From Narcine bancroftii (taxonomy: Eukaryota), in NCBI RefSeq assembly GCF_036971445.1, contig NC_091480.1, forward strand, positions 85,684,001 to 85,748,000: a stretch of 64,000 nt of DNA, in the 5' to 3' direction. The notes under the pieces were generated by a model. The model was not told the DNA's origin. It did not search any database and saw nothing but the letters and a program-made list of their open reading frames with translations. How positions within the stretch are numbered: position 1 is the stretch's first letter; every line of letters begins with the position of its first letter. Positions 18,187 to 64,000 of this stretch are shown here, piece after piece. A program made the translations under genes and the position numbers.

Positions 18187-18414
18187 NNNNNNNNNNNNNN
18201 NNNNNNNNNNNNNNNNNNNNNNNNNNNNNNNNNNNNNNNNNNNNNNNNNNNNNNNNNNNNNNNNNNNNNNNNNNNNNNNNNNNNNNNNNNNNNNNNNNNN
18301 NNNNNNNNNNNNNNNNNNNNNNNNNNNNNNNNNNNNNNNNNNNNNNNNNNNNNNNNNNNNNNNNNNNNNNNNNNNNNNNNNNNNNNNNNNNNNNNNNNNN
18401 NNNNNNNNNNNNNN
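18187..18414. other. Assembly gap (228 N) at the DUSP3 5' end
   Basis: Run of N next to long poly-G and poly-C tracts. Confidence 0.99.
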
Positions 18415-39175: not shown

Positions 39176-40909
39176 GGATGCGGGCTGCTTGGCGGATGCG
39201 GGCTGCTTGGCGGATGCGGGCTGCTTGGCGGATGCGGGCTGCTTGGCGGATGCGGGCTGCTTGGCGGATGCGGGCTGCTTGGCGGATGCGGGCTGCTTGG
39301 CGGATGCGGGCTGCTTGGCGGATGCGGGCTGCTTGGCGGATGCGGGCTGCTTGGCGGATGCGGGCTGCTTGGCGGATGCGGGCTGCTTGGCGGATGCGGG
39401 CTGCTTGGCGGATGCGGGCTGCTTGGCGGATGCGGGCTGCTTGGCGGATGCGGGCTGCTTGGCGGATGCGGGCTGCTTGGCGGATGCGGGCTGCTTGGCG
39501 GATGCGGGCTGCTTGGCGGATGCGGGCTGCTTGGCGGATGCGGGCTGCTTGGCGGATGCGGGCTGCTTGGCGGATGCGGGCTGCTTGGCGGATGCGGGCT
39601 GCTTGGCGGATGCGGGCTGCTTGGCGGATGCGGGCTGCTTGGCGGATGCGGGCTGCTTGGCGGATGCGGGCTGCTTGGCGGATGCGGGCTGCTTGGCGGA
39701 TGCGGGCTGCTTGGCGGATGCGGGCTGCTTGGCGGATGCGGGCTGCTTGGCGGATGCGGGCTGCTTGGCGGATGCGGGCTGCTTGGCGGATGCGGGCTGC
39801 TTGGCGGATGCGGGCTGCTTGGCGGATGCGGGCTGCTTGGCGGATGCGGGCTGCTTGGCGGATGCGGGCTGCTTGGCGGATGCGGGCTGCTTGGCGGATG
39901 CGGGCTGCTTGGCGGATGCGGGCTGCTTGGCGGATGCGGGCTGCTTGGCGGATGCGGGCTGCTTGGCGGATGCGGGCTGCTTGGCGGATGCGGGCTGCTT
40001 GGCGGATGCGGGCTGCTTGGCGGATGCGGGCTGCTTGGCGGATGCGGGCTGCTTGGCGGATGCGGGCTGCTTGGCGGATGCGGGCTGCTTGGCGGATGCG
40101 GGCTGCTTGGCGGATGCGGGCTGCTTGGCGGATGCGGGCTGCTTGGCGGATGCGGGCTGCTTGGCGGATGCGGGCTGCTTGGCGGATGCGGGCTGCTTGG
40201 CGGATGCGGGCTGCTTGGCGGATGCGGGCTGCTTGGCGGATGCGGGCTGCTTGGCGGATGCGGGCTGCTTGGCGGATGCGGGCTGCTTGGCGGATGCGGG
40301 CTGCTTGGCGGATGCGGGCTGCTTGGCGGATGCGGGCTGCTTGGCGGATGCGGGCTGCTTGGCGGATGCGGGCTGCTTGGCGGATGCGGGCTGCTTGGCG
40401 GATGCGGGCTGCTTGGCGGATGCGGGCTGCTTGGCGGATGCGGGCTGCTTGGCGGATGCGGGCTGCTTGGCGGATGCGGGCTGCTTGGCGGATGCGGGCT
40501 GCTTGGCGGATGCGGGCTGCTTGGCGGATGCGGGCTGCTTGGCGGATGCGGGCTGCTTGGCGGATGCGGGCTGCTTGGCGGATGCGGGCTGCTTGGCGGA
40601 TGCGGGCTGCTTGGCGGATGCGGGCTGCTTGGCGGATGCGGGCTGCTTGGCGGATGCGGGCTGCTTGGCGGATGCGGGCTGCTTGGCGGATGCGGGCTGC
40701 TTGGCGGATGCGGGCTGCTTGGCGGATGCGGGCTGCTTGGCGGATGCGGGCTGCTTGGCGGATGCGGGCTGCTTGGCGGATGCGGGCTGCTTGGCGGATG
40801 CGGGCTGCTTGGCGGATGCGGGCTGCTTGGCGGATGCGGGCTGCTTGGCGGATGCGGGCTGCTTGGCGGATGCGGGCTGCTTGGCGGATGCGGGCTGCTT
40901 GGCGGATGC
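39176..40909 (+). repeat. 18-bp minisatellite (GGATGCGGGCTGCTTGGC)n, ~96 copies, in RAB18 intron 5
   Basis: 1734 bp with no visible variant unit; source of the 581-608 aa repeat ORFs in the track. Confidence 0.99.
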
Positions 40910-47511: not shown

Positions 47512-48191
47512 ATATACAGCACAGAACAGGCCAGTTTGGCCCTACTAGTCCATGCCGGAACAAATCCCCACCCTCCTAGTCTCACTGACCAGCACCTGGT
47601 CCATGCCCCTCCAATCCTCTCCCCTCCATGTAATTATCCAGTCTTTCCTTAAATGTAAATAACGTCCTTGCTTCAACCACCTCTGCTGGAAGCTTATTCC
47701 ACATCCCAACCACCCTTTGCGTGAAGAAATTTCCCCTCATAATTTTCCCCCTGCAATCTCAAACCATGGCCTCTGGTTTGAATATCCCCCACTCTTAAAT
47801 TAAAAAAGCCTATCCACGTTGACTCTCTCTGTCCCTTCTTTAAATGAATTGACCATTCTAGCCCAGTATATTGTGACCGAGCCCAGAATAATCTGGTGAA
47901 CTTTACAAACTTTTTTTTAAACTGAGGGGTATTATCAAAATATATTTATGCAAACTTCTCTTGCACTCTTGCAGTGTGGCAACATCATAAATCGGCAGGT
48001 AAATATCAAGGGTGTGTCTGCTCCTTTCTCCAATGTCCATATTATTATGCTGTGATAATTAGAATAGAATTGATCATTAAATCTGCCTTAGAGTTTGCAT
48101 CACCTGTAATCTTTGGGAAGAGATGACCTCTCCTATTTCATAATTTGGCTTGGTTGTATTCATTGACCATAGTGTGGAACTGTGATTTCTA

Positions 48192-48947
48192 TTCATCAGA
48201 TGCAAGGATCGACAACGAGATAGACAACAGACTCGGCAAGGCAAATAGCGTCTTTGGAAGACTACACAAAAGAGTCTGGAAAAACAACCAACTGAAAAAC
48301 CTCACAAAAATAAGCGTATACAGAGCCGTTGTCATACCCACACTCCTGTTCAGCTCCGAATCATGGGTCCTCTACCGGCATCACCTACGGCTCGTAGAAC
48401 GCTTCCACCAGCGTTGTCTCCGCTCCATCCTCAACATTCATTGGAGCGACTTCATCCCTAACATCGAAGTACTCGAGATGGCAGAGGCCGACAGCATCGA
48501 ATCCATGCTGCTGAAGATCCAATTGCGCTGGGTAGGTCACGTCTCCAGAATGGAGGACCATCGCCTTCCCAAGATCGTGTTCTATGGCGAGCTCTCCACT
48601 GGCCACCGTGACAGAGGTGCACCAAAGAAGAGGTACAAGGACTGCCTAAAGAAATCTCTTGGTGCCTGCCACATTGACCACCGCCAGTGGGCTGATATCG
48701 CCTCAAACCGTGCATCTTGGCACCTCACAGTTCGGCGGGCAGCAACCTCCTTTGAAGAAGACCGCAGAGCCCACCTCACTGACAAAAGGCAAAGGAGGAA
48801 AAACCCAACACCCAACCCCAACCCACCAATTTTCCCCTGCAACCGCGTCTGCCTGTCCCGCATCGGACTTGTCAGCCACAAACGAGCCTGCAGCTGACGT
48901 GGACATACCCCTCCATAAATCTTCGTCCGCGAAGCCAAGCCAAAGAA
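48192..48947 (+). mobile_element. RTE-clade LINE, 5'-truncated 3' portion
   Basis: Open frame SSDARIDNEIDNRL...LRWVGHVSRMEDHRLPK...SRIGLVSHKRACS; 3' tail GCCAAGCCAAAGAAA shared with the 56.6-kb copy. Confidence 0.92.
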
Positions 48948-52830: not shown

Positions 52831-54722
52831 CTATCTTTGCTAAGAAGAATGACTTCACAATGGAGACACTGGTGTCCAGTTCTTGTTGATGTAAATGCAT
52901 ACAATGGTGATCTCCATGTCATTTTCTTGTATTAACTTCTAAATTTTCAAACTCAATCATAATGTTTGAATATAATCCCTCTGCCTCTACCATCAAGAAG
53001 AATAAGGTCAAGGGCAGTAGGGACAATTGAATATCACCAACATCCCTGCTAAGTTGCATTCCATCTGCCTGGAAGTGCGTCACTGATCCACCATCGTGAT
53101 TGGGTCTATATCTTGAACTTCTATCTGCCACAGGACAATAGGTGTAGTTTTACCAAGAAGATGATTTACTTGCCAGCTTCTCAAGAACACTTAAGCAACA
53201 ATTGGTACCAATTCTAAAACAAATACATTAAGATGATGGGACCAGGACATATTGAATTACTTTATTTGTACATTTATAAGGAGCTCTGTAATATGCATAT
53301 AAAAATGTAACTAATTGTACCAAGTAAAATTGGTAGATACTCAGCAGGAAATGCAATATCGTGGGAGATATCGACTCTTGAGATCAAGGAGCGCACAAAG
53401 AGAAGCTGGAGGAACTCAGCTCATGGATAGAAGATGAAGTAGATCTGATGAAAGACAGCCCTAAGCCTTTCTCCATAGATGCTGTAGAACATAGAACACT
53501 ACAGCATAGTACTGGCCCTTTGGCTCTCAGGGTTGCGCAGGCCTACATATTGCAACAAAAAAACCCCCTAACTCCTCCCTATCTTATAACCTTCAACTTT
53601 TCTTTCATCCATATGCCTGTCTATCGAACACTACAGCACAGAACAGGCTGTCCTATAAATATACATAATTTGGTCCTTTACCCATTTTATATTATTTTAA
53701 ATTCTCAGCATTTGCATGGCTAATTGAGTTTTCATTTTGTGTTGAATGGGTTAAGTTCAGAGTGAAAACAAGAACCTTTTATTTATAGGTCTTTGATAGT
53801 TTTCTGTTACAATGAATGACTTGGTAATGCCACGAGGATGTGACATCCTGTGTCTTATTTTTTCCATTTTACTTCCCTGTATCCTGTTGCTGACAAGAAA
53901 TTGAGTGATTTGGCAGAGTGCATGAGGAATTATTTTGTGTTTTCCAGTAGGGGAGTAATTGCCATTTTGCATTGCATTTGATGGGCCTTCTGCTTCAATA
54001 CCACATTTATTACACCATTGTTTATATTGCACAGGCATGCTCATCAAACCAAAGGGATTAAAGGCTTCCAGCGTAAATATTAACTTTCCCATCATAAGTT
54101 GATGGTTGATGATACTAATCAAATTGCTGAATGAATATCCTTTGGACTAAATTCAAAGACTTTATCACTTTCTAGGTACCCATGAATTAAATCAAAATTC
54201 TCTCCAGTCCTCCAGCAGCTCCCTAATGGCCAAGGAGGATGGAAAGATCAGCACCAACACCCCAGCAATCTCTTCCCTCCCTTCCCTGGAGTATATCTTG
54301 TCCGGTCCCAATGTTTTCAAGATCCAGTACTTCCTTAATCTCAACATGGTCCAGCACATAAGGTTGTTCTATTCTGACCTCCCCCTTGTGTAAGGTCCTT
54401 TTCTCTGGTGAATACAGAAGCAAAGCATTCATTTACAATCTCCCCGACCTCATCCAAAACAAATTGTCAGCAGTAGGGAAATTGCTGGGGGGGAGAAATC
54501 GGAGGGACAAGATCAATCTACACCTGGGATTAATCAAAAATGGTCAGCAATGCCCTATTTCAGGTGGTCCTTCAATACTGATTTTTATTTTGAAGCGATT
54601 TAATTAGGATGGCAGTGGGTTGATATAATCTTAATGGACCAGTGAGGGGGCCTAATCCAAAAGGCTAGCGATCCAGGATAAGATGGCAAACTGGATCCAT
54701 AATCGGTTTGGTAAATGGAGGC

Positions 54723-56621
54723 TCTTGTGTCTTGGTGTGAGCTTGCAGGCGCCTCAGATTGAAGAGACTGCCATCCGTGCGGTACCGGATGTAAGCAGCG
54801 TCTTCATTGTTGAGGTCTTTCATGGCTTGTTTCAGCATCATGTTGAAGAAGATTGAAAAGAGAGTTGGTGTGAGAACGTAGCCTTGCTTCACGCCATTGT
54901 TAATGGAGAAGGATTCAGAGAGCTCATTGCTGTATCTGACCTGACCTTGTTGGTTTTCGTGCAGTTGGATAACCATGTTGAGGAACTTTGGGGGGCATTC
55001 GAGGTGCTCTAGTATTTGCCAAAGCCCTTTCCTATTCACAGTGTCGAAGGCTTTGGTGAGGTCAACAAAGGTGATGTAGAGTCCTTTGTTTTGTTCTCTG
55101 CACTTTTCTTGGAGATGTCTGAGGGCAAAGACCATGTCAGTAGTTCCTCTGTTTGCGCGAAAGCCGCACTGTGATTCTGGGAGAACATTTTCGGTGACGC
55201 TAGGTATTATTCTATTTAGGAGAATCCTAGCAAAGATTTTGCCTACAATGGAGAGCACCGTGATTCCCCTGTAGTTTGAGCCAGCTGATTTCTCGCCTTT
55301 GTTTTTGTACAGGGTGATGATGATGGCATCACGAAGGTCCGGAGGCAGTTTTCCTTGGTCCCAGCAGAGCTTGAAAAACTCGTGCAGTTTGGCATGCAGA
55401 GTTTTGCCGCCAGCCTTCCAGACCTCTTGGGGGATTCCATCCATACCTGCTGCTTTGCCACTTTTCAGTTGTTCAATTGCCTTGTATGTCTCTTCCCGGG
55501 TGAGGACCTCATCCAGCTCTAGCCTTAAGGGCTGTTGAGGGAGCTGGAGCAGGGCAGATTCTTGGACTGAGCGGTTGGCACTGAAAAGAGATTGGAAGTG
55601 TTCTGACCATCAGTTGAGGATGGAGATCTTGTCGCTGAGGAGGACTTTGCCGTCTGAGCTTTAGTTGCCCATTCAGAGCCAGCTCTTCAGCGCTTGACGT
55701 CCTGTTTTGCGGAAACTGCCAAAATGTTTGGCCTGGAAGTCAGCCTGAAGAAAACTGAGGTCCTCCATCAGCCAGCTCCCCACCATGACTACCAGCCCCC
55801 CCACATCTCCATCGGGCACACAAAACTCAAAACGGTCAACCAGTTTACCTATCTCGGCTGCACCATTTCATCGGATGCAAGGATCGACAACGAGATAGAC
55901 AACAGACTCGCCAAGGCAAATAGTGCCTTTGGAAGACTGCACAAAAGAGCCTGGAAAAACAACCAACTGAAAAACCTCATAAAGATTAGCGAATACAGAG
56001 CCGTTGTCATACCCACACTCCTGTTTGGCTCCGAATCATGTGTCCTCTACCGGCATCACCTACGGCTCCTAGAACGCTTCCACCGGCGTTGTCTCCACTC
56101 CATCCTCAACATTCATTGGAGCGACTTCATCACCAACATCGAAGTACTCGAGATGGCAGAGGCCGACAGCATCGAATCCACTCTGCTGAAGATCCAACTG
56201 TGCTGGGTAGGTCACTTCTCCAGAATGGAGGACCATCGCCTTCCCAAGATCGTGTTATATGGCAAGGTCTCCACTGGCCACCGAGACAGAGGTGCACCAA
56301 AGAAGAGGTACAAGGACTGCCTAAAGAAATCTCTTGGTGCCTGCCACATTGACCACCGCCAGTGGGCTGATCTTGCCTCAAACTGTGCATCTTGGCGCCT
56401 CACAGTTCAGCGGGCAGCAACCTCCTTGGAAGAAGACCGCAGAGCCCACCTCACTGACAAAAGACAAAGGAGGAAAAACTCAACACCCAACCCCAACCAA
56501 CCAATTTTCCCTTGCAACCATGACTGCCTGTCCCGCATCGGACTTGTCAGCCACAAACGAGCCTGCAGCTGACGTGGACATTACCCCTCCATAAATCTTC
56601 ATCTGCGAAGCCAAGCCAAAG
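54723..56621. mobile_element. RTE-clade LINE with 5' inversion (minus-strand RT segment 54723-55660, plus-strand 3' segment 55658-56621)
   Basis: ORFs 54665-55444(-) (NYRGITVLS, QCGFR, FVDLTKAFD, GVKQG) and 55694-56572(+) are consecutive parts of one RT; 10-bp TSD AAATGGAGGC at 54713-54722 and 56622-56631. Confidence 0.92.
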
Positions 56622-59995: not shown

Positions 59996-60692
59996 AATGA
60001 TAATTCCATTCATTAGAATAAGATGAACATTATTGTGTCTTCCATTGGCAGATTACAGTTTTGCCCAAGCATTAATGTAAAATATTTAGCACTTTTAACA
60101 ACACAATTTCCACAATGTATTTGATTTCCTCCTATTCCCACAAAGCTATATTTCAACAAATTATCCAATATATTTTGCGGTAAATTAATGTAGATTTGCA
60201 TTCAGATCTTGATGCCTTAAATTTGTTTAAAAGGCCTTCAAAGGACCCAAATCAGAAATGGGATACATGTCATGGGTTCAATGGATGCAGCTATTAATGA
60301 ATCTGTACACCCCCTCCATAAATCTTCGTCCGCGAAGCCAAGCCAAAGGAACACCCTATATCAGTTAACACCCCTCTCTTGGATGTCTCCATTTAAATCT
60401 TGTGATTAAATGTTTTAAATGGGTTGTGTCTACTGTTTTGGCAGCATTATTATATTTGCTTTTCTTATTGCAGCTGTTTTAATATTTTTAGCTTTGAATT
60501 ATCACATTCAAATTCATCATTAATCATTTGAAGGTGTGCTTCTACAATTCCACTTGTCGGCTAGTTTTGCTTTATCTGAAAATTATTATTTCCCTCCTCT
60601 GCTTGTGACACTCAGGAAGAATGCATGTGTGAAATACATAGTTATATTAAAGTTTTAATTGAAATTCTGTGGAATCTTTCCTTCTCCAACAA

Positions 60693-61279
60693 CTCTAGAC
60701 AACAATTTTTTTTTTGCTTCCTGAAAAAAATTGGGGATTTTGATGGACAACTTCAAGATGAACACAAAAGGTGATTTCAGAGTTGCTGTATCACGTAGTA
60801 AGTTGGAAAAACATTAAATTAACTTTTATTGAATTTAGCCTGTTTAACCACATAACAGTGCTGACACATTGCGTTAGTTGAACTGACTTAAAAACGTTTT
60901 GCCGCTGATTTTCATTTGATGCCTCTCGTGTCAGTTTGAACAAAAGTCAGCCAGTGTTGATGGATTCCAGTTGTCCTGATACTGCTTTTTTTTCCATAGT
61001 CGCAATGTCTTGGTCAAACCTTTCACCACGTTTGGCACCGAGATCAGAAGGGAAGAAGTCCAAGTGCAAATGCAAAAAATGAATTTTCAATGACATGTTT
61101 GCATTTCATGGTTTTGTATGCTTGAAACATGTTAAAAATATGACAGGAAACACAAAAAAAGTTATCTAAACAGCAGTATATGATAGGAAATTTTTAAAAG
61201 TGATTTTTGTGATCAACAATCCAGAATCCATAAAATACACCCAAAAGTGTTCAGGAAGCAAAATCTTAATTGTCCAGTG
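60693..61279 (-). mobile_element. Chapaev3-type DNA transposon deletion derivative with transposase C-terminus
   Basis: Terminal regions shared with 13770-14560; ends ...TTGTCCAGTG|TAA; minus strand encodes MSLKIHFLHLHLDFFPSDLGA..GERFDQDIATMEK..YQDNWNPSTLADFC. Confidence 0.75.
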
Positions 61280-61360
61280 TAATAATAGGGCCTGAAAGAC
61301 ATACATTTGAATTTGGAAGCCTTTAGGAGTACTTGAGGTTTTGGATGGATATTACAAACC

Positions 61361-61566
61361 TTAGCAATGGTCTTTATAGTCATGACAGCAGTCATCATGT
61401 TTGGAGCAGCTTGTAGTACAGCTGCAGGGAAAACTATGTGAATAGGCACCACATCGTCCTGCACAAGAACTCATATCAACCCCCTCGCAACTGCAAGGAC
61501 CACCAGAGATTCCACCACTGATGCCGATGTACCTTTCTGGCTTGTAGTAGGTGTCCGGGAGCTTAG
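61361..61566 (-). CDS. Terminal exon of an unidentified gene encoding a C-terminal somatomedin-B-like cysteine-rich domain
   Basis: Strong acceptor tttctcttcctcttgcAG (AG at 61568-61567); phase-1 frame KLPDTYYKPERYIGISGGISGGPCSCEGVDMSSCAGRCGAYSHSFPCSCTTSCSKHDDCCHDYKDHC then TAA; SMB pattern SCxGRC...CxCxxxC...DCCxDYxxxC with all 8 Cys. Confidence 0.85.
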
Positions 61567-62043
61567 CTGCAAGAGGAAGAGAAATTTAGATGAGAGATGA
61601 GTAATCTTCACTTTGCAAGAATTGTGAAGCAAGCAGTTTGATGGTGGTCTTATTTTGTTTTTTACAAAAATCATGTCTACTTGGCTAGACCCAGGAGCTT
61701 CTTCCAACTTGGTCTCTGGACCAAGAAGATGCCCCTGTGTAATGTGGGTTGTGCAATATGCAGACAACCTGCCACACTTGCACAATGACTTTATGGGTTT
61801 TTTTTTCACATATAGCCACTGCATTCAGGAAATTATTGCCATTTTCCCAGAGAACATGCTGCGTAAAAAGGTCAGAACGGGAATGAAGATGCCATTCCCG
61901 TCCTGATATTTTACCTCCTCGACCCCCAGTAAATTTCCTGGAATGCCTGCAGCCTAAAGTTAACTGCAGCCATTCTGTGAACAATGGGTTAATGAATAGC
62001 ACAAATCGATGATGTGCATTTCAAGTCCCGCCTCTTTAATTAC

Positions 62044-62171
62044 CGCACCTCCGGTACGTTGCCTTAACTCGTTTAAGGAAACCGAGATTTTGAGTTTTGG
62101 AAATTCGTGTGTGTGAACGACCATTACTGAAATGGACATTCTTCAGACCAGTAAAACCACGCAAATTCGAT
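62044..62171 (-). CDS. Candidate penultimate exon of the SMB-domain gene
   Basis: ttttttttaAG acceptor and G|GTAATT donor; only one open frame (SNLRGFTGLKNVHFSNGRSHTRISKTQNLGFLKRVKATYRRC); ends in phase 1, matching the SMB exon (G+CT=Ala). Confidence 0.55.
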
Positions 62172-63505
62172 CTTAAAAAAAACATTTGACAACTACCAAA
62201 GCCCTGACCCAAGCTCAACAGCAGCCAATGTGCCTTTAACATTCGCAGCTACTTAAATAATATTTAAGACTTGTTAATAATTATTTGAATCATTTATAAG
62301 GACCCATGCTCTAAAACAACAAATATTGAAGCTAGCCAAAGTATTTAATAAAAAGGCAATTTAACTCTTCCCTTGCAGCTGATGTCTCCCATACATTTTT
62401 ACTTGTCTGAGGTTTAATCCAATACAGGACTAGTATTCTGCAGTCTGATGAACATACTATACATAAGTCGTGGGAAGGAGGGCCTGGTAAGGGGAAAGTT
62501 ATCAAGTTAAGTAGAAAGGGCAAGGTGATAGATTAGGACATCAAAATGGACATTAATAACCAGAATTTGTTAAGAAGAGGATAGATACTGAGCAATAAGA
62601 AAGGGTTACTTAATAATCTAAGAGACATTTAAAGGGACAGTGATCATATGATAAAATCTTGTAAAGTAAGAAAGCTTTGGAGGAATTAATAAGATCGCTC
62701 TACCTGTAATAGGTAGAGTGCTAAAAAGATTCAGCAAGTTAATTCCAAATTAGTCAGATTGGATTTATAATTCTAAAATTGAGAAGAATCTGATTGACAC
62801 ATGCTCTATTCTACAGGACTGATGCAGGGATTATGTTTCCCCTGGTTAGGCTATGGCTGGGAATAACTTTAGTACTGGACAGGCACCAGAACTTTCAGTA
62901 CCGTTACTCTTTTTTTAGGGGTGGGGGGAGGGGAATGTGTATTCTCCCAATACTACATTCAATTTCAGCGATAAGAGTGGTCAGTTTCCTCATCTTCCCC
63001 ACAGTCTTTGCTCTCATTCAGAGACTTCAAGAATGACATTGCCATTAGACACGTGCAAGAGCCAAGGTTTCTAAAATACTGCTTTCCAAATCTTCATAAA
63101 TGCCTTCCTTATGGTCACTAATGACTTCAGTTATAACCAGTTCTAGCTGATTAACCAACTACTTTATTTTACTTAAAAATTAAACCAAATTGAACAAATG
63201 AATATTTTAAACCAAATGACATCGTTATTCAACAAAGCCCGCATTTATAGAAACAGCAGGTGGCAGAATGCACACCCTTGTATTTGCTGGTCCCACACCT
63301 GAGTCAAAAGACTTCAATTGACTGGTACTATACCAACATGAAACTGGATATTTATGCCAGCTTTTAGCAGTAACCCAACTGCCTCAGAATGGCTTCCTCT
63401 GGCCCTGCAAATTCATCTGGTAGAGGCTGGTACTTACTTTAATGGAGGAGGCTTTGCTGGCCTAAGTCTTTACCCACATCAATGCTGGAAAGTTCAAAGC
63501 CAACC

Positions 63506-63736
63506 TGTAGCGCATCAAATGACTCAAAGACTTGTTGAGTCAAACCAAGGCTTTTATTAACAAAAGACTGGAGCGTATTACATTGAGGTCAACCAGTCCA
63601 GACTGACCCAGGTCTGGTTAGGAGCACCCTTTAATGACCTGCAAGTAGGCGTGCCTATGGTTCTCAGCCAATCACTACTACTCTATGTAAATATATACAA
63701 ATAGATACAATGGTGATCGTATTCTGTACTATCACA
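63506..63736 (-). mobile_element. Solo LTR, family A, diverged copy
   Basis: TGTAG...TATCACA; TSD CAACC/TAACC. Confidence 0.8.
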
Positions 63737-64000
63737 TAACCCATGTATGTCCAATTGCAGAAAAACGAGTATCTGCCGCCAGATTCCAGCTGGGTGAATG
63801 TAATGTTCCTCCAACCTAAGATTCTATACAAGTGCTCCGCAGACTTGCCAGAATTCTACTTCTGGGGTCTGCCAGTTTAGATCTGCTGCACAATCTATGA
63901 GCCCTTTCTCATTAAGGGGGTCTGTGTCTGAGAGAATATAAGAAATAGCAGTCGGCCGCCCGGCCCGTTGAGCCTGCTCTGCCATTCGTGGCTGATCTGA

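What the first reader, a model, noticed from the sequence alone, without database searches (positions are those of the whole stretch)
61361..62171. Hidden third gene: unidentified protein ending in a GISGG-GPCxCEG plus somatomedin-B cysteine module
Seen: a clean terminal exon absent from the ORF track with ten Cys (GPCSCEG, then SCAGRCG..PCSCTTSC..DCCHDYKDHC*), preceded by a phase-compatible basic exon. Established: mammalian SMB proteins (vitronectin, ENPP1-3, PRG4, ENDOU, SUSD2, SBSPON) carry the domain near the N-terminus, so a C-terminal SMB is atypical. From memory, amphibian DNase I has a C-terminal cysteine-rich tail with a similar GISGG..GPCxCEG..SCxGRCG pattern, yet the upstream exon here is not DNase I-like (no SDHYPV). 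Inference: a secreted protein with no obvious mammalian counterpart at this locus, and possibly a phase-1 exon module shuffled onto different extracellular enzymes. The rest of the gene probably lies beyond the window end.
Basis: partly seen in the sequence, partly recalled or inferred. Interest (0 to 1): 0.75.

Follow-up and report, generated by a model that had tools for sequence, protein, structure and literature searches.

The report
Last exon of ray DNase1L5 gene
This is the final exon of an already described DNA-cutting enzyme gene (DNase1L5) of sharks, rays, coelacanth, bichirs and amphibians, whose cysteine-rich tail likely helps the presumably secreted enzyme fold and reach its targets, so it is an ordinary known gene and not a new protein.

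Summary
The cysteine-rich exon is real: 61566-61361, minus strand, 67 codons, ten Cys, Pfam somatomedin B. It is not an unidentified protein. It equals the last 67 residues of a public ray 'deoxyribonuclease-1-like' model (XP_069761067.1). Contigs of two sequencing runs (RNA by guess) leave the genome exactly at 61566 and continue into sequence coding the end of the DNase catalytic domain. The proposed 'basic exon' (62171-62044) is not used: it is out of phase with the real upstream exon and appears in no relative. On the catalytic domain alone, the model groups (100/99) with 7 reference members of DNase1L5, the DNase I paralogue with a C-terminal SMB domain described by Mori et al. 2022 and earlier called amphibian 'DNase I'. 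Small extras: the linker is predicted to be ordered against the enzyme; frogs have two alternative SMB last exons at the same junction; the gene sits by DUSP3 in elasmobranchs but elsewhere in bony vertebrates. Open: signal peptide (the public model starts with retrotransposon sequence) and the tail's ligand. No earlier scan note covers this gene.

The parts
61361..61566 (-). Last coding exon of DNase1L5: 2 bases completing a split codon, 67 codons, stop TAA (61363-61361)
   Evidence: 67 of 67 residues identical to the end of P0001; contigs of runs X3 and X4 leave the genome at 61566
61567..61600 (-). Splice acceptor: pyrimidine tract and AG (61568-61567)
   Evidence: sequence; junction used in X3, X4
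61499..61564 (-). Linker between catalytic domain and Cys head, with conserved G-I-x-G-G (61525-61511)
   Evidence: G 56 of 56, I 54, G 54, G 54 among tail-bearing rows; pLDDT 86-94 in two AlphaFold2 models
61487..61495 (-). Extra C-x-C pair in front of the SMB domain
   Evidence: both Cys in 56 of 56 tail-bearing rows; in 0 of 88 other SMB proteins
61364..61468 (-). Somatomedin B domain, eight Cys
   Evidence: PF01033 E 2.1e-07; seven Cys in 56 of 56 rows, the last in 55 of 56
61251..61360 (-). Start of the 3' untranslated region; runs into a high-copy repeat below about 61283; true 3' end not determined (AATAAA at 60830 is an untested candidate)
   Evidence: spliced contigs of X3 and X4 begin at 61251 and 61254; poly(A) motifs
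61567..64000 (-). 3' part of the last intron; the donor and all other exons lie beyond the window end
   Evidence: tblastn of 7 full-length proteins finds only the last exon in the window
62044..62171 (-).
   Evidence: no joint, out of phase, no homologue, chance-level

Best explanation
The feature is the last coding exon of the ray's DNase1L5 gene, spliced in phase 1 onto the exon that ends the DNase I-type catalytic domain, and it adds a linker, a C-x-C pair and a somatomedin B domain to an enzyme that is likely secreted and likely cuts extracellular DNA. Shown: the exon, the junction, the ten cysteines, family placement. From the public model, not from the window: a complete DNase I active site (equivalents of N7, E39, Y76, E78, R111, H134, D168, N170, D212, D251, H252) and both disulfide pairs. 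Inferred: Mg2+/Ca2+-dependent cleavage at neutral pH to 5'-phosphate ends as for the DNase1 family; secretion through a signal peptide as in orthologues. Predicted: the first 20 or so tail residues lie along the catalytic domain as an ordered strap anchored by G-I-x-G-G, which would explain why the tail was reported as needed to produce active amphibian enzyme (about 0.6); the SMB head is a disulfide-knotted, mobile binding module that would localise the enzyme to a protein or matrix partner (about 0.5, partner unknown).
For: Exon peptide identical to the end of P0001, 'deoxyribonuclease-1-like' XP_069761067.1; all 7 hits of 8 candidates are shark/ray DNase-1-like proteins with PF03372 + PF01033. 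X3 and X4 contigs: 0 mismatches up to 61566, then a loose end (211 and 255+ letters) whose first 30 letters, read by hand on the other strand, code the ten residues of P0001 that precede the junction. Catalytic-domain-only trees: P0001 in a clade with all 7 available reference DNase1L5 proteins, SH-aLRT 100 (47 rows) and 100/99 (33 rows); forcing it with 4 DNase1 proteins is rejected, p-AU 1.7e-12. References are 7 of the 8 accessions classed DNase1L5 in the supplement of PMC9208542. Active-site residues read from the alignment to human DNase I 4awn and counted over 97 rows; the model matches 4awn at rmsd 1.3 A. Isoform pairs of frogs, a stingray and coelacanth diverge at the same codon as this junction. 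DUSP3, the neighbour here, shares a contig length with DNase1L5 in 17 of 17 elasmobranch species that could be compared, including the reference skate. Linker pLDDT 92/86 and 92/87.
Against: The catalytic exons are outside the window and no genome was held, so all but ten upstream residues rest on a public gene model. That model is flawed at its 5' end: residues 32-142 are Ty3/gypsy-type RNase H in place of a signal peptide, and it has a 13-residue insert no relative shares. The four runs come from one study and are RNA only by guess; X1 and X2 hold unspliced contigs across the acceptor. The SMB head is modelled poorly (pLDDT under 50), and high linker pLDDT is only indirect evidence of packing: no contact map was available. 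No shark or ray DNase1-proper sequence was in the trees, and the non-L5 labels come from database names. The tail requirement is known to me only through one sentence of Mori et al. citing Takeshita 2001, which was not held.
Confidence: 0.94

Rival explanations
1. The gene is DNase1L5, but in this ray its 5' end is really disrupted by a Ty3/gypsy element, so the product lacks a signal peptide or carries an RNase H-like piece, as the public model says.
For: P0001 begins with about 145 residues matching RT_RNaseH families and retrotransposon polymerases where relatives have a hydrophobic leader.
Against: The model is a singleton cluster and has a second unshared insert, typical of automatic models; the other shark and ray proteins aligned keep the normal start; the last exon is intact, spliced and 58-76% identical to shark and ray orthologues; merged or mis-started models also occur for this gene in other species (P0012, P0138).
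Confidence: 0.08
2. The 62171-62044 stretch is used as a rare alternative exon after the catalytic exon, giving a short SMB-less isoform (it would stop after 9 codons).
For: It has a plausible acceptor and donor; SMB-less ends at this junction are modelled in a stingray (2 isoforms) and coelacanth (1); the intron part holds two exon-like stretches where the null gives two or more in 45 of 1000 draws.
Against: No contig of 4 runs begins or ends at 62171 or 62044 with a loose end into DNase sequence; contigs drop rare forms, so this is weak.
Confidence: 0.05
3. One reading: an unidentified secreted protein whose basic exon 62171-62044 splices to the SMB exon.
For: The donor at 62044 is phase 1 and would keep the frame into the SMB exon.
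Against: Observed junction goes elsewhere; peptide has no relative; every full-length relative is a DNase.
Confidence: 0.01
4. The gene is DNase1 proper that has gained an SMB tail, as the older amphibian literature named it.
For: It shares the C101-C104 pair with DNase1 (PMC9208542) and database names say 'deoxyribonuclease-1-like'.
Against: Trees and AU test; Met instead of Arg at the R41 position in 55 of 56 tail-bearing rows.
Confidence: 0.02

Closest known systems
DNase1L5 orthogroup (Mori et al. 2022, PMC9208542), e.g. Amblyraja radiata XP_032890678.1 and Scyliorhinus canicula XP_038634983.1
   Same: DNase1 catalytic domain plus C-terminal SMB, both Cys pairs, same clade; window exon 75% identical to the Amblyraja tail over 67 columns; same chromosome as DUSP3 in Amblyraja
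   Different: Nothing of substance in the exon; the public model for this ray has a retrotransposon-derived start instead of a signal peptide, unresolved
Amphibian 'DNase I' (Xenopus, Bufo japonicus Q90WM0; Takeshita 2001, seen only as a cited title)
   Same: Same orthogroup, same ten-Cys tail, same last-exon boundary
   Different: Tail 42-52% identical in bony vertebrates; five frog species have two alternative SMB last exons in database models, the window holds one; different chromosomal neighbourhood
Mammalian DNase I (PDB 4awn, 1dnk)
   Same: Fold (rmsd 1.3 A, TM 0.97 to target) and active-site residues
   Different: Paralogue; no tail; Arg41 is Met here; one extra residue in the Ca2+ loop before the C209 equivalent
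Other SMB proteins (ENDOU/XendoU, hemopexin-domain proteins, CUB and multi-SMB proteins)
   Same: Eight-Cys SMB core
   Different: None of 88 has the G-I-x-G-G linker or the extra C-x-C. A C-terminal SMB is not unique: 18 of the 88 have one at their end, some perhaps fragments

Membership tests
DNase1L5 | C-terminal somatomedin B domain with eight Cys | tested here: met
   PF01033 above cut-off on the window peptide; Cys columns
DNase1L5 | SMB exon joined to a DNase1 catalytic domain | tested here: met
   contigs of X3 and X4 run from 61566 into sequence coding the last ten residues of the catalytic exon (read)
DNase1L5 | Monophyly with reference DNase1L5 proteins, tail left out | tested here: met
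   100/99 clade with 7 of 7 references used; done on the public model P0001
DNase1L5 | C101-C104 and C173-C209 cysteine pairs | tested here: met
   present in P0001 and 56 of 56 tail-bearing rows; from the model, outside the window
DNase1 family | Catalytic and Mg2+-binding residues (N7, E39, H134, D168, N170, D212, D251, H252 equivalents) | tested here: met
   alignment to 4awn and column counts; from the model, outside the window
DNase1L5 | N-terminal signal peptide | tested here: inconclusive
   first exon outside the window; public model has RNase H-like sequence there; orthologues have a hydrophobic leader by eye, no predictor run
DNase1 family | Divalent-cation-dependent DNA endonuclease activity | not testable with these tools
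   needs an assay
DNase1 proper (DNASE1) | Clade with bird and teleost DNase1 | tested here: not met
   p-AU 1.7e-12; no shark DNase1 in the set
SMB-bearing enzymes ENDOU / ENPP | XendoU or phosphodiesterase domain on the same chain | tested here: not met
   Pfam on P0001 gives Exo_endo_phos, SMB and RT_RNaseH only

The most novel reading that the evidence does not exclude
The DNase1L5 last exon is a switchable two-part cassette: a strap that latches onto the nuclease and a ten-cysteine head that addresses it, exchanged by alternative splicing (two different SMB exons in frogs, SMB-less ends in stingray and coelacanth models) to retarget one extracellular DNase; and the gene moved chromosomes between cartilaginous and bony vertebrates (by DUSP3-RAB18 versus near PLXNA3/APEX2 and DNase1L1L).
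Probability: 0.3. Interest if true: 0.35.

Novelty: already known. Interest (0 to 1): 0.13.

Why it matters
Mostly as a correction: the exon belongs to a described, publicly annotated gene family. What is left is modest. DNase1L5 was lost in mammals and its SMB tail has no known ligand, so an intact, spliced ray copy is one more handle on how extracellular DNases are targeted by their tails (as the basic tail of DNase1L3 and the GPI anchor of DNase1L1 are, per PMC9208542). The predicted ordered linker gives a testable reason for the reported need of the tail, and the public model of this gene needs its 5' end fixed.

Tried and rejected
Own-genome search: no genome held, so upstream exons could not be read. 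No listed run is on record as RNA; parts of the stretch without cover are not used as evidence. First lay of 60600-64000 was swamped by repeats; the narrower lay gave the junction. The 'basic exon' as coding exon: rejected. A second SMB exon or second DNase copy in the window: none. Exon module on other enzymes: 0 of 88 (18 of the 88 were scanned with Pfam, chosen mostly for matches reaching furthest into the linker). ESM Atlas: only SMB clusters, recognition 2288, below the 2300 mark, nothing added. A complex prediction of tail with catalytic domain was not available, so packing of the linker has no controlled test. Takeshita 2001 not held. Paper searches: 'DNase1L5' is in one work only; led to the same paper, (SMB, exon shuffling) to nothing on this gene, to none. 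Earlier scan notes: none near this place; one bacterial SMB-like lipoprotein, unrelated.

Full report
Observation. On the minus strand, 61566-61361 is an exon: pyrimidine tract and AG at 61600-61567, two bases that complete a split codon, 67 codons, TAA. It has ten Cys; residues 33-67 match Pfam Somatomedin_B at E 2.1e-07, above the curated cut-off, and no other SMB-like pattern occurs in the six frames of the window. The window's other genes are DUSP3 (three exons, 18034-2016, minus; 97-100% to a public ray model) and a RAB18-like gene (plus, about 22650-42699; identified from motifs partly recalled), so this is the third gene, tail to tail with the RAB18-like gene at 18.7 kb.

Identity. Searched against longer proteins, the peptide gave 7 hits among 8 candidates, all shark or ray 'deoxyribonuclease-1-like' proteins with PF03372 and PF01033; the best, P0001 (Narcine bancroftii, XP_069761067.1), is identical over 67 of 67 residues. 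Only this last exon lies in the window. A search with the skate protein listed 120 of 202 hits; 39 of the 120 carry the tail, the named ones from sharks and rays, amphibians, bichir and coelacanth.

The junction. Four runs of one study, RNA only by guess, hold the stretch. Contigs of X3 and X4 match the genome without a mismatch up to 61566 and then continue in other sequence; the 30 letters shown, read by hand on the opposite strand, code the ten residues YPIELELKDD that precede the junction in P0001, plus one base that completes the split codon. X1 and X2 hold unspliced contigs across the acceptor (pre-mRNA, retained intron or DNA; not resolved). No joint was listed. Its peptide finds nothing in Pfam or in 154 fetched proteins. 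Stretches of this kind number 35 on the two strands of the window; in a Markov null of the intron part at least one appears in 227 of 1000 draws and two or more, as observed, in 45 of 1000. I read it as intronic, with a small chance of rare use.

Family. Mori et al. [quoted passage not shown] Their table lists 8 members; 7 were among my fetched proteins by accession. With the tail left out, P0001 falls in a clade with all 7 (SH-aLRT 100, 47 rows picked from 154; 100/99, 33 rows); holding it with 4 DNase1 proteins is rejected (p-AU 1.7e-12). Limits: labels outside DNase1L5 come from database names or tail type, and no shark DNase1 proper was included. The model keeps the equivalents of N7, E39, Y76, E78, R111, H134, D168, N170, D212, D251, H252 and both Cys pairs (numbering counted by hand on the 4awn alignment); R41 is Met in 55 of 56 tail-bearing rows.

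How it likely works. Shown: splicing of the tail onto the catalytic exon. From family knowledge (PMC9208542): a divalent-cation-dependent, neutral-pH endonuclease, secreted, clearing extracellular DNA. Predicted: two AlphaFold2 models (P0001 mature part with 97 rows; a stingray orthologue with 63 rows) give the DNase I fold (rmsd 1.3 A to 4awn) and place the linker with pLDDT 92/86 and 92/87 although it is coil, with one short strand pairing at the Ile-Ser of G-I-S-G-G; confidence then falls to under 50 in the SMB head. Together with conservation of G-I-x-G-G (56, 54, 54, 54 of 56) and of both extra Cys (56 of 56), this suggests a strap packed on the enzyme and a mobile disulfide knot beyond it. 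This is indirect: no contacts were seen and no controlled complex prediction was available. That SMB domains bind protein partners (vitronectin with PAI-1 and uPAR) is recalled; no partner is known here.

Shuffling and conservation. Database isoform pairs with identical catalytic domains diverge at the same codon as this junction or the next in 5 frog species (two different SMB tails each), a stingray (two SMB-less ends) and coelacanth (one); a bamboo shark model reads through into what looks like a phase-1 donor; of the 14 pairs compared, two were identical in the tail and three were separate paralogues. A full HMMER scan of 1.84 billion representatives gave 89 hits: one DNase1L5 and 88 other SMB proteins, none with the linker or the C-x-C pair, against 38 and 39 of 39 in DNase1L5. 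One ancient gain of an SMB exon is plausible; spread of this exon to other enzymes is not supported.

Locus. Using contig length as a proxy, counted by eye, DUSP3 and DNase1L5 share a contig in 17 of 17 elasmobranch species with both entries (4 further species could not be compared) but in 1 of 13 bony vertebrates. A bichir model fuses the gene to PLXNA3 and a tailed-frog model to APEX2, and in two frogs it shares a contig with a DNase1L1L-type gene. Mori et al. do not mention Dusp3, Rab18 or plexin in the text, nor Dusp3 in the supplements; subscription papers were not searched, so this is not a claim of novelty.

Against or open. The 5' end of P0001 is Ty3/gypsy-type RNase H sequence in place of a signal peptide with a further unshared 13-residue insert, modelled at low confidence. 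This is most likely an annotation error, but a real disruption cannot be excluded from this window.

Verdict. Real exon, wrong upstream partner, known gene: DNase1L5. Already known; interest 0.13.

Noticed in passing
P0001 residues 1-146 (outside the window): The public model of this gene starts with retrotransposon RNase H-like sequence instead of a signal peptide and has a 13-residue insert that no relative shares; probably an annotation error.
   Followed up: partly
P0010/P0129, P0133/P0130, P0316/P0018, P0319/P0019, P0036/P0320: Five frog species have two alternative, diverged SMB last exons on an identical catalytic domain.
   Followed up: partly
P0125, P0126, P0143: SMB-less isoform models in a stingray and the coelacanth end within three residues of the same junction.
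   Followed up: partly
window 2016-61566: DNase1L5 shares a contig with DUSP3 in 17 of 17 elasmobranchs but 1 of 13 bony vertebrates, where merged models tie it to PLXNA3 and APEX2: a likely change of locus.
   Followed up: partly
P0002/P0009, P0030/P0033, P0029/P0035: Duplicated DNase1L5 genes in little skate and two frog species (35-46 differences in 200 residues); the first two pairs share a contig length.
   Followed up: no
window 39176-40909: Perfect tandem array, 18-base unit, 96.3 copies, 100% matches, inside an intron of the RAB18-like gene; open in all six frames. Recent expansion or assembly artefact.
   Followed up: no
window 60702-61283: High-copy repeat with imperfect 34-base inverted ends just behind the stop codon, very deep in all four runs; possibly a MITE-like element in or behind the 3' UTR.
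   Followed up: no
window 61312-62885: Runs X1 and X2 hold unspliced contigs across the last intron; retained intron, pre-mRNA or DNA.
   Followed up: no
window 18187-18414: Assembly gap of 228 N about 150 bases upstream of the DUSP3 start codon.
   Followed up: no
window 48127-48897 and 54665-56572: Two related fragments that look like LINE reverse-transcriptase sequence, by eye.
   Followed up: no
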